Origin: Candidatus Bathyarchaeia archaeon
GTDB lineage: Archaea; Thermoproteota; Bathyarchaeia; 40CM-2-53-6
NCBI GenBank assembly: GCA_035935655.1
Contig: DASYWW010000062.1
Location: 203,859-267,858 of the forward strand
Reading direction: 5' to 3'
DNA: 64,000 nt
Part shown: positions 51,291-52,485 of the stretch, in pieces
How the letters are laid out: the number at the start of each line of letters is the position of its first letter
Position numbering within the stretch: the stretch's first letter is position 1
Translations under genes and position numbers: made by a program
Notes under the pieces: model-generated
The model's input: the letters and a program-made list of their open reading frames with translations, nothing else
Databases searched by the model: none
What the model was told of the DNA's origin: nothing

Positions 51291-51791
51291 TCATTTTTTC
51301 TCTTCTGAAGCCCGAGGCGGAGAAACGGGAAGAGTAACGATAGCGGTACTCATAGTCTCCTGGGCAGATTGAGCCGTGGTGACTACTGCATCGGCAACTT
51401 GCGGAGCAGACGTCTGCGCTTCGATTGAAGGAAGGCTTGCTAACATTTTTCCGACTGAGCCTCTAATCTTTGGAGCAACGGATTCTAGTTTCACTTTTGC
51501 CTCTCGTAGGTTCTTGTAGAGTGTCGCCGCGGCAGCAGTCCCTGCCAGCCCGATTCCGAGGCCGAGTGCGATCGTGTAGGTTGTGAAATGCTCGATAAAG
51601 ATACTGTTCGCGTAGATCCGGAAGTAGACGTTGTAAACGTACTCGTTTGAGAGCCAGAATGCGAAGAAGGCGATGACGATTGCTTCGATGATCATGAAGG
51701 CTTTAACAGAATCCGGCGTAACAGACTTCTGAACGGTCTTGCTGGGAGCCATCTTTTCCGCCAGACTCTCCTGCAAGAGGGACGCTGGCAC
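51291..51791 (-). CDS. Hypothetical membrane protein (166 aa)
   Basis: ORF with 2-3 hydrophobic helices. Confidence 0.4.
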   Translation of the reverse strand: MPASLLQESLAEKMAPSKTVQKSVTPDSVKAFMIIEAIVIAFFAFWLSNEYVYNVYFRIYANSIFIEHFTTYTIALGLGIGLAGTAAAATLYKNLREAKVKLESVAPKIRGSVGKMLASLPSIEAQTSAPQVADAVVTTAQSAQETMSTAIVTLPVSPPRASEEKK

Positions 51792-51892
51792 TGCTGGATT
51801 TGTGGAGATTGTATCTTAGATTGAAGAACGAGGGGTGTCGATCAAGAGATTTCGAAAACCCCACGCTTGCAGGAGGTCATAGTTGGATTGGC

Positions 51893-51900
51893 TTTAAGAA
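51893..51900 (+). promoter_or_regulatory. TATA-box-like element (TTTAAGAA) about 25-30 bp upstream of the tRNA 5' end
   Basis: Position and AT-rich octamer are consistent with an archaeal tRNA promoter. Confidence 0.4.
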
Positions 51901-51924
51901 CGGAGAAAGCCTCGTGAGGCCCAA

Positions 51925-52086
51925 GCGGGGGTTCCCGAGACCACTATGGGTTCCTGTCCTGTAGGGCGGGATTCAGGTCAAAGGGGCAGGACCGCTCGTG
52001 TAGAGCGGTGCTTGACTTAAGATCCGGCTTCAGGAGAGATCCTGTGGCGTAGGCCTTCGTGGGTTCGAATCCCACCCCCCGCACCA
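51925..52086 (+). tRNA. tRNA-Leu (anticodon UAA candidate), intron-containing: about 162 nt for a mature length of about 87 nt, with genomically encoded CCA
   Basis: Perfect 7-bp acceptor stem GCGGGGG/CCCCCGC. T-arm GTGGG-TTCGAAT-CCCAC. Long variable arm GGC-GTAG-GCC (class II). Discriminator A followed by CCA. The 5' end GCGGGGGTTCCCGAG resembles archaeal tRNA-Leu. Anticodon loop candidate CTTAAGA at 52016-52022. The D and anticodon regions are interrupted, so the exon/intron boundaries are not resolved. Confidence 0.6.
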
Positions 52087-52113
52087 GAACAAACCTCTGT
52101 CTTGGATTGTTTT

Positions 52114-52485
52114 CTAGTTCGATCCTATCTCGGAGGCTCTGACTGCGTCGAAATCGACCGGGTTAGTGGGAATCGGAACTTGGAAGCTTTCGGGTAAGTC
52201 CCCCTTTCCCAAGCACCGGAACTCTACGTGGTGGCACTTTGGACATTTCAAATCATTGCGTAACTGTCCCGGTTCACTCTTTTCGTCCCGCCAGATCTTG
52301 TATCCGCAACCTGGACGAGTGCACTCGTAAACGTATGTGATGTCCTCTTGCTTAGGAGAGGCTCTCTTTTTGGGATGAGAGCCACCCTTCGCCGAAGCCT
52401 TGTGGCGATGAGAGATCTTTCGGGGTTTTGTTACGTGTTTGGATTTTGTTCTTCTCTTGGAGCTCGTTCGACGAACTGCGGGCAT
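52114..52485 (-). CDS. Basic small protein with a Lys/Arg-rich N-terminal tail and a C-terminal zinc ribbon (123 aa)
   Basis: RRTSSKRRTKSKHVTKPRKISHRHKASAKGGSHPKKRASPK, then CTRPGCGY...CPKCHH. Confidence 0.4.
   Translation of the reverse strand: MPAVRRTSSKRRTKSKHVTKPRKISHRHKASAKGGSHPKKRASPKQEDITYVYECTRPGCGYKIWRDEKSEPGQLRNDLKCPKCHHVEFRCLGKGDLPESFQVPIPTNPVDFDAVRASEIGSN

What the first reader, a model, noticed from the sequence alone, without database searches (positions are those of the whole stretch)
51890..52090. tRNA-Leu(UAA) candidate carrying about 75 nt of intervening sequence, probably at non-canonical positions (D-loop and around the anticodon loop)
The ends form an unambiguous class-II tRNA: a 7-bp acceptor stem, T-arm GTGGG/TTCGAAT/CCCAC, variable hairpin GGCGTAGGCC, discriminator A and encoded CCA. 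The 5' 15 nt match archaeal tRNA-Leu. The gene spans 162 nt. Candidate mature D-arm pieces (CCCG-AG ... CAGGTCAAAGGG) are separated by about 34 nt (51940-51973). The only Leu-compatible anticodon loop (CTTAAGA, 52016-22) sits between a perfect CAGGA/TCCTG stem pair that is 48 nt apart. That gap contains a 6-bp hairpin (CCGCTC-GTGTA-GAGCGG) and a second CAGGA-GAGA-TCCTG hairpin. This suggests two or three introns, some outside the canonical 37/38 site. That arrangement is known mainly from a few archaeal lineages and is hard for standard tRNA finders.
Basis: seen in the sequence. Interest (0 to 1): 0.55.

Follow-up and report, generated by a model that had tools for sequence, protein, structure and literature searches.

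The report
Three-intron tRNA-Leu(UAA) gene, Bathyarchaeia
This is very probably a working leucine tRNA gene of a soil archaeon (Bathyarchaeia) broken up by three short protein-spliced introns, which is a well-documented kind of archaeal gene that the finders available here (ARAGORN, Rfam) miss, so it is a good catch but not a new phenomenon.

Summary
Window 51925-52086 (+) encodes a tRNA-Leu(UAA) in four exons (51925-39, 51973-90, 52015-21, 52039-83, then encoded CCA). Three introns interrupt it: 33 nt at position 15/16 in the D-loop, 24 nt at 30/31 in the anticodon stem, and 17 nt at the canonical 37/38 site.

Default ARAGORN and Rfam find nothing. After the three blocks are removed, ARAGORN calls an 88-nt tRNA-Leu(UAA) whose lowest-energy fold is a cloverleaf.

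Intron 2 sits in a textbook hBHBh' (bulge-helix-bulge) motif. Intron 1 has a relaxed HBh' motif. Intron 3 has a compressed, relaxed motif.

Scans of public genomes and metagenomes gave 100 complete orthologues (79 distinct precursors). Their spliced products collapse to 9 near-identical 85-nt sequences. The intron blocks vary in length and sequence and show compensatory changes in the BHB helices.

The flanks are 83-84% identical to soil Bathyarchaeota MAG contigs, and a TATA-like box is conserved at about -33. Leu(UAG) and Leu(CAA) genes in Bathyarchaeia MAGs are also split three times.

Three-intron archaeal tRNA genes and the 30/31 position are already described. This is a new member of a known kind. 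No RNA-level evidence of splicing is available here.

The parts
51892..51899 (+). TATA-box-like promoter element CTTTAAGA, 33-26 nt upstream of the mature 5' end
   Evidence: Seen in sequence. A [CT]TT[AT]A[AT] box lies at -39 to -31 (mode -34) in most orthologues, although their flanks are otherwise divergent. Function is inferred, not shown.
51925..51939 (+). Exon 1: tRNA positions 1-15 (acceptor 5' strand GCGGGGG, U8 U9, D-stem 5' strand CCCG, A14 G15)
   Evidence: Identical or near-identical in all orthologues.
51940..51972 (+). Intron 1, 33 nt, at 15/16 in the D-loop. Relaxed HBh' motif: H = CCCG 51934-37 : CGGG 51967-70; bulges AG|A (51938-40) and AT|T (51971-73); h' = 51941-42:51965-66, continued by 51944-50:51958-64. 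There is no exon-side helix h.
   Evidence: H paired in 79/79; h' positions 3-4 covary; 92% of cells pair against 33-52% when the register is slid. Length ranges 17-48 nt with 58 variants among orthologues.
51973..51990 (+). Exon 2: tRNA positions 16-30 (rest of the D-loop with G18 G19, D-stem 3' strand, G26, anticodon-stem C27-G30)
51991..52014 (+). Intron 2, 24 nt, at 30/31. Strict hBHBh' motif: h 51982-84:52016-18; H 51985-88:52009-12; bulges GG|A (51989-91) and TG|A (52013-15); h' CCGCTC 51992-97 : GAGCGG 52003-08; loop GTGTA.
   Evidence: Second-ranked motif overall, and the best-ranked that gives a valid tRNA, in my scan (H 4 bp, h 3, h' 6). Covariation: 5 pairs with double-sided changes, 53 cells, 0/500 shuffles reach it, 92.7% paired against 31-44% slid. 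The slipped MFE register breaks in 14-16 of 44 sequences at the bulge columns.
52015..52021 (+). Exon 3: tRNA positions 31-37 (A31, loop C32 U33, anticodon U34 A35 A36, G37)
52022..52038 (+). Intron 3, 17 nt, placed at the canonical 37/38 site. Any 17-nt window from 52020-36 to 52026-42 gives the same product because AGATCC is repeated. Relaxed motif: h = anticodon stem, complete only after intron 2 is removed; H = 3 bp, C32-G52036, U33-A52035, U34-G52034; 3' bulge AG|A 52037-39. The intron-side helix TCC 52023-25 : GGA 52033-35 competes for the same GGA.
   Evidence: H1-H3 paired 79/79, H4 only 9%. Some sister-clade orthologues, e.g. L041 and L038, have a complete hBHBh' at 37/38.
52039..52083 (+). 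Exon 4: tRNA positions 38-73 (A38, anticodon-stem 3' strand UCCUG, long variable arm UGGCGUAGGCCUUC, T arm, acceptor 3' strand, discriminator A73)
52084..52086 (+). Genomically encoded 3' CCA
   Evidence: Present in the window's clade but absent in the L038/L041 clade, where CTT follows the discriminator.

Best explanation
Window 51925-52086 (+) is a functional, chromosomally encoded tRNA-Leu(UAA) gene of a soil Bathyarchaeia archaeon. Three short introns of the archaeal endonuclease-spliced (bulge-helix-bulge) type interrupt it.

Proposed mechanism:
1. Transcription starts downstream of a TATA-like box at about -33 and produces a precursor of roughly 170 nt or more.
2. In the precursor, the D-stem 5' strand pairs with the 3' end of intron 1. 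The D-stem 3' strand and the anticodon-stem 5' strand pair with the 3' end of intron 2. This presents two bulge-helix-bulge motifs that the tRNA splicing endonuclease (EndA) cuts inside the 3-nt bulges.
3. An RtcB-type ligase joins the exons.
4. Removing intron 2 makes the anticodon-stem 5' strand contiguous. Only then can the third, relaxed motif at 37/38 form completely and be cut. So introns 1 and 2 probably go before intron 3.
5. The product is an 85-nt class-II tRNA plus encoded CCA, with A73 and a long variable arm.

What is shown: the gene anatomy, the motifs, conservation and covariation, and the taxonomic setting. What is inferred: transcription, the enzymes, the splicing order, and that splicing occurs at all.
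For: (1) Default ARAGORN and Rfam at gathering thresholds find nothing. After deleting 51940-72, 51991-52014 and 52022-38, ARAGORN calls an 88-nt tRNA-Leu(UAA) with a normal D arm, anticodon arm, variable arm and T arm. Its MFE is a cloverleaf at -39.6 kcal/mol.

(2) Intron 2 lies in a perfect hBHBh' motif. Intron 1 has a perfect 4-bp H, two 3-nt bulges and an h' helix.

(3) A genome scan anchored only on the uninterrupted 3' part found 7 orthologues in Bathyarchaeia MAGs with insertions at the same three sites. It also found many uninterrupted 85-nt Leu genes in other Thermoproteota whose length matches the predicted spliced product.

(4) With the metagenome loci there are 100 complete genes, 79 distinct precursors and only 9 distinct spliced sequences. 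Of these, 67 are identical to the window's. The introns have 58, 59 and 30 variants and lengths of 17-48, 21-40 and 16-23 nt.

(5) Covariation: BHB2 has 5 pairs with double-sided changes and 0/500 shuffles reach the score. 92.7% of cells pair against 31-44% in slid registers. BHB1 pairs at 92% against 33-52%.

(6) The bulge nucleotides vary freely, as expected for unpaired positions (B2 of intron 2 is TG, AC, AA, AT, AG or CG).

(7) Decayed copies exist elsewhere (L181/L183, L182, L230, L240) with broken acceptor or anticodon regions. They show what a pseudogene of this gene looks like, and the window copy is intact.

(8) A TATA-like box sits at a conserved distance.

(9) The flanks (dnaK, dnaJ, NAD kinase, IleRS) are 83-84% identical over 4-5 kb to the Bathyarchaeota MAG contigs VBBR01000135 and MNGN01000057. 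The host is therefore a TACK archaeon, the group in which broad-specificity (alpha-beta)2 endonucleases and relaxed motifs are described (PMC7714728, PMC4033280).

(10) Leu(UAG) and Leu(CAA) genes in Bathyarchaeia MAGs are also split by a D-loop intron plus 30/31 and 37/38 introns. Each gives an 85-nt tRNA-Leu after removal.
Against: - There is no RNA-level evidence that the gene is transcribed or spliced.
- Nearest-neighbour thermodynamics does not favour the BHB conformers in the naked precursor. The full-length MFE is -77.9 kcal/mol against -58.4 for my BHB1+BHB2 model.
- The pair probabilities of the H helices are below 1%. The local MFE for intron 2 is a slipped helix (-17.9 against -12.6 kcal/mol).
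- Intron 3 in the window's clade lacks a complete BHB. H is 3 bp plus an A-G mismatch. The intron-side helix competes for the same GGA. An intron copy of CAGGA is predicted to sequester the anticodon-stem 3' strand (P about 0.86).
- Intron 1 lacks the exon-side helix h.
- Part of the exon invariance is by ascertainment. The metagenome pattern fixed exon 2 and the junctions, and my regular expression fixed exon 3 and much of exon 1.
- The endonuclease type of this lineage was not determined.
- tRNAscan-SE in archaeal mode was not available.
Confidence: 0.9

Rival explanations
1. It is a decaying pseudogene: a tRNA-Leu that has accumulated insertions and no longer gives a functional tRNA.
For: Standard finders do not call it. 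Decayed relatives do exist in metagenomes (L181/L183, L182, L230, L240). Whether the genome holds another tRNA-Leu(UAA) could not be checked, because only 64 kb is available and it contains no other tRNA.
Against: All four exon blocks are intact, and the spliced sequence is identical to that of 67 of 100 orthologues. The insertions sit at the same three sites across divergent orthologues and keep BHB pairing through compensatory changes. The promoter-like box is conserved. The real decayed copies look different, with broken acceptor stems and anticodon loops.
Confidence: 0.04
2. It is a different tRNA with a single long intron, such as ARAGORN's intron-mode call of tRNA-His(GUG) with an 84-nt intron. 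A related two-intron reading gives tRNA-Ser(AGA).
For: ARAGORN -i reports tRNA-His(gtg) i(34,84) on the raw locus. After removal of intron 1 only, it reports tRNA-Ser(aga) with a 41-nt intron.
Against: The His model builds its D arm and anticodon from intron-1 sequence, which differs completely in orthologues such as L041, L038 and L055. It also keeps a long variable arm, which is atypical for tRNA-His (my own knowledge, not tested here). No BHB motif lies at its junctions. The Ser model has C at position 33 and A73, and it discards the conserved CTTAAGA loop. Neither alternative is conserved. The Leu(UAA) exons are.
Confidence: 0.01
3. The gene is functional, but intron 3 is cut at a different register (anywhere from 35/36 to 41/42), or is processed through a different conformer than the one proposed.
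For: AGATCC is repeated at 52020-25 and 52037-42, so seven registers give the identical product. In the window's clade the local MFE conformer (-9.1 kcal/mol) has a 4-nt 5' bulge, a 3-bp helix shifted by 2 nt and the TCC:GGA helix, but only a 1-nt 3' bulge.
Against: None of the other registers has a 4-bp or even 3-bp H in my manual check of the registers. The 37/38 register has H1-H3 paired in 79/79 sequences, with freely varying bulge nucleotides. Some sister-clade orthologues (e.g. L041, L038) have a complete hBHBh' at exactly 37/38. The shifted helix needs G52038, which is A or T in many orthologues (B2 composition).
Confidence: 0.05

Closest known systems
Multi-intron tRNA genes of Thermoproteales, e.g. 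Pyrobaculum islandicum tRNA-Pro(UGG) with introns at 25/26, 37/38 and 56/57 (PMC4090602). Pyrobaculum calidifontis has 71 introns in 46 tRNA genes (PMC8450103).
   Same: Three endonuclease-type introns in one tRNA gene. One is canonical and two are non-canonical. The junction motifs are BHB or relaxed BHB. The host belongs to the TACK archaea. Default tRNA finders miss the gene. The 30/31 position is on the published list of non-canonical sites (PMC4090602).
   Different: The host is a mesophilic soil Bathyarchaeia lineage, not a hyperthermophilic Thermoproteales. One intron is in the D-loop at 15/16, a position not named in the review lists I could read (they end with 'etc.'). I found no paper describing tRNA introns in Bathyarchaeia.
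Non-canonical tRNA introns of Thaumarchaeota (Nitrososphaeria), for which tRNAscan-SE 2.0 has a dedicated BHB covariance model (PMC8450103)
   Same: A mesophilic TACK lineage with many non-canonical introns. Nearby introns need iterative removal before the next BHB can form.
   Different: A different class of archaea. Whether the Thaumarchaeota or Crenarchaeota intron models detect these Bathyarchaeia introns was not tested.
Disrupted nuclear tRNA genes of the red alga Cyanidioschyzon merolae (PMC3728597)
   Same: Up to three BHB-type introns per gene. There are 14 D-loop introns. Ordered removal was shown experimentally, with ectopic introns removed before the 37/38 intron. That is the same order I infer here.
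   Different: A eukaryotic nucleus with a eukaryotic endonuclease. There is no homology between the introns.
Split and permuted archaeal tRNA genes (Nanoarchaeum, Caldivirga, Thermofilum; PMC3218864, PMC4090602)
   Same: The same BHB-dependent processing logic. The 30/31 site is also a known split site (tRNA-Lys CUU).
   Different: Here all exons are contiguous and colinear on one strand within 162 nt. No trans-splicing or permutation is needed.

Membership tests
Archaeal endonuclease-spliced (BHB) tRNA introns | Removing the insertions yields a tRNA with a canonical cloverleaf and the conserved nucleotides | tested here: met
   ARAGORN calls an 88-nt tRNA-Leu(UAA). The MFE of the spliced sequence is a cloverleaf. 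U8, A14, G18 G19, A21, U33, the GTTCGAATC T-loop and A73 are read directly from the sequence.
Archaeal endonuclease-spliced (BHB) tRNA introns | Each exon-intron boundary lies in a 3-nt bulge flanking a 4-bp helix (hBHBh'), or in a recognised relaxed form (HBh', hBH, BHL) | tested here: met
   Intron 2 is a strict hBHBh'. Intron 1 is an HBh' with a perfect H and both bulges but no h. Intron 3 is relaxed: h of 5 bp, a 3' bulge and a 3-bp H, with the 5' site in a loop or 4-nt bulge. Relaxed forms are accepted members according to PMC4033280 and PMC7714728.
Archaeal endonuclease-spliced (BHB) tRNA introns | Exons are conserved, introns are free to vary, and motif helices are kept through compensatory change | tested here: met
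   Caveat: exon invariance in the metagenome set is partly imposed by the search pattern. The 3'-anchored genome set does not have this bias for exons 1-3 and shows the same pattern.
Archaeal endonuclease-spliced (BHB) tRNA introns | The host is an archaeon encoding a splicing endonuclease able to cut relaxed motifs, of (alpha-beta)2 or epsilon2 type | not tested
   An archaeal (Bathyarchaeia) host is supported by 83-84% identity of the flanks to Bathyarchaeota MAG contigs. EndA genes were not looked for. The six ORFs nearest the tRNA gene give no EndA hit; the rest of the window was not scanned.
Archaeal endonuclease-spliced (BHB) tRNA introns | The introns are actually excised and the exons ligated in vivo | not testable with these tools
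   This needs RNA sequencing, RT-PCR or an in-vitro cleavage assay.
tRNA-Leu (class II) | Leu anticodon, long variable arm with its own hairpin, discriminator A73 | tested here: met
   Anticodon UAA at 52018-20, variable arm UGGCGUAGGCCUUC, and A at 52083. The spliced sequence aligns in length (85 nt) with uninterrupted Leu genes from other Thermoproteota.
Self-splicing group I / group II introns in tRNA genes | An intron of hundreds of nucleotides with a conserved ribozyme core | tested here: not met
   The introns are 33, 24 and 17 nt. Rfam gives no intron family hit even at E<=10.
Split or permuted tRNA genes | Exons at separate loci or in permuted order | tested here: not met
   All four exons are colinear within 162 nt on one strand.

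The most novel reading that the evidence does not exclude
The window gene may be one representative of a Bathyarchaeia tRNA-Leu family in which intron accumulation has gone as far as, or beyond, anything documented.

- All three Leu isoacceptors examined carry three introns at conserved sites.
- A sister clade of the same UAA gene (L128, L153, L189, L198, L213) appears to carry a fourth BHB-type intron in the variable arm. That would exceed the published maximum of three per gene.
- In the window's own clade, intron 3 has a 'compressed' motif. A single GGAG segment must serve alternately as the central helix (presenting the 3' site) and as the intron-side helix (presenting the 5' site). Its outer helix exists only after intron 2 is removed.

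If real, this would imply obligatorily ordered, conformer-switching splicing and selection for keeping the introns, rather than neutral drift.
Probability: 0.2. Interest if true: 0.55.

Novelty: new member of a known kind. Interest (0 to 1): 0.3.

Why it matters
For annotation, this is a real and probably essential tRNA gene that the general finders available here (ARAGORN, Rfam) miss or mis-call. ARAGORN in intron mode labels it tRNA-His. Genomes of this widespread soil and sediment lineage would therefore look as if they lack tRNA-Leu isoacceptors unless an archaeal BHB-aware search is used.

For biology, it extends heavy tRNA-gene disruption to mesophilic Bathyarchaeia. That trait has so far been described mainly for Thermoproteales and Thaumarchaeota.

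It also supplies a large natural set of variants for studying substrate rules of the broad-specificity splicing endonuclease: 79 distinct precursors, with strict, relaxed and compressed motifs in one transcript.

It does not change what is known about how such introns work.

Tried and rejected
- **Default finders.** ARAGORN and Rfam gathering-threshold scans of the whole window gave no hits. A permissive Rfam scan gave only sub-threshold partial hits to the T-arm and acceptor end, annotated tmRNA and Y RNA. I rejected these as generic tRNA-like 3' ends.
- **ARAGORN intron mode.** It gave tRNA-His(GUG) with an 84-nt intron, and tRNA-Ser(AGA) after removing intron 1 only. I rejected both because they are not conserved, lack a BHB, and the Ser model has C33.
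- **My BHB scanner** allows G-U pairs and produces many chance hits. Its nominal top hit (51965-52005, with H containing two G-U pairs) would delete the D arm. I rejected it because the product is not a tRNA.
- **MFE folding** of the precursor does not recover the BHB conformers. I therefore did not use thermodynamics as support and relied on comparative data. The slipped MFE register for intron 2 was tested explicitly and fits the orthologues worse.
- **Other registers for intron 3** (35/36 to 41/42) were checked by hand. None gives a central helix.
- **C/D-box guide RNAs in the introns.** I saw no C box (RUGAUGA) on reading them, and they are too short for such guides. I did not pursue this.
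- **Sigma-70 promoter and intrinsic-terminator scan.** It is irrelevant for an archaeon and found nothing on the gene strand.
- **Literature on Bathyarchaeia tRNA introns and on four-intron tRNA genes.** The searches found nothing specific. Sugahara 2007 (PMC1852824) is not held, so I could not check whether 15/16 has been listed before.

Full report
**Observation**

The region reads as the first-stage reader described.
- A 7-bp acceptor stem: GCGGGGG 51925-31 pairs with CCCCCGC 52076-82.
- A T arm GTGGG/TTCGAAT/CCCAC at 52059-75.
- A variable-arm hairpin GGC-GTAG-GCC at 52046-55.
- Discriminator A at 52083 and an encoded CCA at 52084-86.
- About 74 nt too many between the two ends.

Default ARAGORN finds no tRNA anywhere in the 64-kb window. 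Rfam at gathering thresholds finds nothing. A permissive Rfam scan only picks up the tRNA-like 3' end, below threshold. The 162-nt stretch folds with the acceptor and T arms closed and is more stable than shuffles (z = -3.07).

**Anatomy**

I wrote a scanner for the archaeal splice motif. It looks for a 4-bp helix H flanked on opposite strands by two 3-nt bulges, each cut after its second nucleotide, with outer helices h (exon side) and h' (intron side).

It returns one textbook motif compatible with a tRNA, the intron at 51991-52014:
- H = GGCA 51985-88 : UGCU 52009-12.
- Bulges GG|A and UG|A.
- h' = CCGCUC:GAGCGG, 6 bp.
- h = AGG 51982-84 : CUU 52016-18.

A second motif removes 51940-51972:
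- H is the D-stem 5' strand CCCG 51934-37 paired with CGGG 51967-70.
- Bulges are AG|A and AU|U.
- h' is 51941-42:51965-66, continued by 51944-50:51958-64.
- There is no exon-side helix. This is the relaxed HBh' form.

The third block is 17 nt. AGATCC occurs at both 52020-25 and 52037-42, so seven registers give the same product. The register with a usable motif is the canonical 37/38 site, intron 52022-38.

Deleting the three blocks gives an 85-nt RNA plus CCA. ARAGORN calls it tRNA-Leu(UAA) with a normal cloverleaf and long variable arm. Its minimum-energy fold is that cloverleaf.

In tRNA numbering the introns lie at 15/16 (D-loop), 30/31 (anticodon stem) and 37/38.

**Comparative test**

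*Genome scan.* I scanned species-representative genomes with a pattern covering only the uninterrupted 3' part: variable arm, T arm and acceptor. It hit at least 120 loci, nearly all Thermoproteota. Many Desulfurococcales and Sulfolobales genes are uninterrupted 85-nt tRNA-Leu genes, the same length as the predicted spliced product. Seven Bathyarchaeia-type MAG contigs (L051, L022, L081, L028, L041, L038, L055) carry UAA genes interrupted at the same three places.

*Metagenome scan.* A scan anchored on exon 2 and its junctions added at least 120 loci. Altogether there are 100 complete genes and 79 distinct precursors, but only 9 distinct spliced sequences. Of these, 67 are identical to the window's. 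The introns have 58, 59 and 30 distinct versions and lengths of 17-48, 21-40 and 16-23 nt.

Part of this exon invariance is imposed by my search pattern and regular expression. The 3'-anchored genome set has no such bias for exons 1-3 and shows the same picture.

*Pair counts.* These are anchored on the splice sites and repeated with the covariation tool.
- Intron 2: five pairs with changes on both sides (CG/GC/AU/UA/GU). 92.7% of cells pair, against 31-44% in slid registers. None of 500 shuffles reaches the score.
- Intron 1: H and the first two h' pairs are invariant. The next two covary. 92% of cells pair, against 33-52% slid.
- Intron 3: three H pairs are kept in 79/79 sequences. The fourth is almost never paired (9%). 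The bulge nucleotides vary freely.

*Intron 3 across clades.* Some sister-clade orthologues (e.g. L041, L038) have a complete hBHBh' exactly at 37/38: CUUA:UAAG, then AG|A, then UCC:GGA. This fixes the homologous position. In the window's clade the intron is 2-3 nt shorter, and one GGAG has to serve either H or h'.

**Thermodynamic caveat**

Nearest-neighbour folding does not favour the BHB conformers.
- The full-precursor MFE is -77.9 kcal/mol against -58.4 for my BHB1+BHB2 model.
- The H helices have under 1% probability in the ensemble.
- For intron 2 a slipped, nearly continuous helix is the local optimum.

I tested that slipped register on the orthologues. It breaks in 14 and 16 of 44 sequences at exactly the two columns the BHB model treats as bulge nucleotides. 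The BHB central helix holds at 96.6%. The comparative data therefore prefer the BHB register. I do not count folding energies as support.

**Inferred order of events**

- BHB1 uses the D-stem 5' strand. BHB2 uses the D-stem 3' strand plus positions 26-28. The two can coexist in the precursor.
- The h helix of BHB2 uses C32-U34. These are the same nucleotides that form H of BHB3.
- The outer helix of BHB3 is the anticodon stem, which intron 2 interrupts.
- The third motif is therefore complete only after intron 2 has been removed.

This is inference from the sequence. It matches the iterative logic described for archaeal multi-intron genes (PMC8450103). It also matches the experimentally shown order in Cyanidioschyzon merolae, where ectopic introns go before 37/38 (PMC3728597).

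**Context**

- The gene lies in a 322-nt gap between two small minus-strand ORFs with no Pfam hit. It is downstream of dnaK-dnaJ and upstream of a NAD kinase and IleRS.
- The flanks are 83-84% identical over 4-5 kb to contigs of 'Candidatus Bathyarchaeota archaeon BA_23' and 'Crenarchaeota archaeon 13_1_40CM_3_52_17', with the same gene order.
- A TATA-like box (CTTTAAGA, 51892-99) lies 33 nt upstream of the mature 5' end. A similar box sits at -39 to -31 in most orthologues despite divergent flanks.
- Leu(UAG) and Leu(CAA) genes in Bathyarchaeia MAGs are also split three times. The D-loop intron is at 15/16, 21/22 or 17/17a, and the others are at 30/31 and 37/38. Each gives an 85-nt tRNA-Leu after removal.

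**Comparison with what is known**

- Archaeal tRNA genes with up to three BHB introns, non-canonical positions including 30/31, relaxed motifs (HBh', hBH, BHL), and their link to (alpha-beta)2 or epsilon2 endonucleases in TACK and ARMAN archaea are all established (PMC4090602, PMC4033280, PMC7714728, PMC8450103).
- The window gene meets every defining feature that sequence analysis can test. The endonuclease type and actual splicing were not tested.
- I found no paper on tRNA introns in Bathyarchaeia.
- I could not verify whether 15/16 has been listed before.

It is a new member of a known kind.

**Rivals**

- *Pseudogene.* The intact, majority-type exons, the conserved motifs and the promoter box argue against it. 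So does the contrast with truly decayed copies found in metagenomes.
- *ARAGORN's tRNA-His and tRNA-Ser intron-mode calls.* They rest on non-conserved intron sequence and violate tRNA rules.
- *A different register or conformer for intron 3.* This cannot be excluded, but it would not change the product.

**Verdict**

My confidence that this is a functional three-intron tRNA-Leu(UAA) gene is about 0.9. Interest is modest (0.3). It is a clean, well-supported example from a lineage where this had not been described, but the mechanism and the gene type are known.

The most interesting by-product lies outside the window. Five orthologues carry what looks like a fourth BHB intron in the variable arm. 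That would exceed the published maximum of three.

Noticed in passing
L128 (Ga0182021_10014620), L153 (Ga0181527_1034403), L189 (Ga0315282_10040749), L198 (Ga0315280_10064035), L213 (Ga0074046_10005606): These are orthologues of the window gene with the same three introns plus a fourth 14-17 nt block inside the variable arm (TGGCGTAG|AG..ACGCGCAA|GCCTTC). The block has a BHB core: H GCGT:GCGC and bulges AG|A and AA|G, with outer helices of only about 1 bp. Removing all four blocks gives an 85-nt tRNA-Leu(UAA) by ARAGORN. With the block retained there is no call. The papers I read give three as the maximum per archaeal tRNA gene, and I found no report of four. Alternative reading: an unspliced, unusually long variable arm.
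   Followed up: partly
L181 and L183 (same sequence), L182, L230, L240: These are decayed or truncated copies of the three-intron tRNA-Leu(UAA) gene. They show a broken 5' acceptor strand, a CTTATCC loop, a mutated 3' acceptor, or a missing exon 1. The gene family evidently leaves pseudogenes in some genomes.
   Followed up: partly
L081 and L102 (DASPWZ010000026/32, titled 'Candidatus Dormiibacterota bacterium SMAG_U11554'); L108 (JAJPJY010000123, titled 'bacterium Centralia_MAG_577'): Contigs labelled as bacterial carry archaeal three-intron tRNA-Leu genes. L081 also matches the window's dnaK-dnaJ region at 74% identity. The bins are probably contaminated or mislabelled.
   Followed up: no
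window 52031-52044: Intron 3 contains a copy (CAGGA, 52031-35) of the anticodon-stem 5' strand. In the naked precursor it is predicted to pair with the stem's 3' strand UCCUG 52040-44 with probability about 0.86. The decoy hairpin is conserved in the window's clade (CAGGA-GAAA/GATA/GAGA-TCCTG). I do not know whether it delays anticodon-stem formation until intron 2 is removed or is just a by-product of the compressed motif.
   Followed up: partly
L031, L075, L080, L101, L102, L108 (Leu-CAA genes): The 37/38 intron of these Bathyarchaeia tRNA-Leu(CAA) genes is 56-58 nt, much longer than in the UAA and UAG genes, and it has an internal hairpin. Their D-loop intron is only 11-13 nt, with H closed directly by a loop. 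I did not examine the content of the long intron.
   Followed up: no
L021 (Acidilobaceae MAG) and L087 (Thermoproteota MAG): The 3' part of a tRNA-Leu (anticodon loop through acceptor) is present, but no GCGGGGG 5' acceptor strand lies within 260 nt upstream. This could be a very long intron or a split gene.
   Followed up: no
L039 (Bathyarchaeia SPRUCE 265): The Leu(UAG) gene as parsed (133 nt) seems to run from CCCG directly into GGGCAGG, without the D-loop segment seen in its relatives. This may be a parsing artefact, an assembly error or a damaged gene.
   Followed up: no
window 51291-51791 (-) and 52114-52485 (-): The two ORFs flanking the tRNA gene (166 and 123 aa) have no Pfam match. 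The 166-aa ORF is also called as a gene on the identical Logan contig L001.
   Followed up: no
downstream of the gene in orthologues (table): The 3' CCA is genomically encoded in the window's clade but not in the L038/L041 clade, where the discriminator is followed by CTT/TTT. CCA encoding therefore varies within this one orthologous gene.
   Followed up: no
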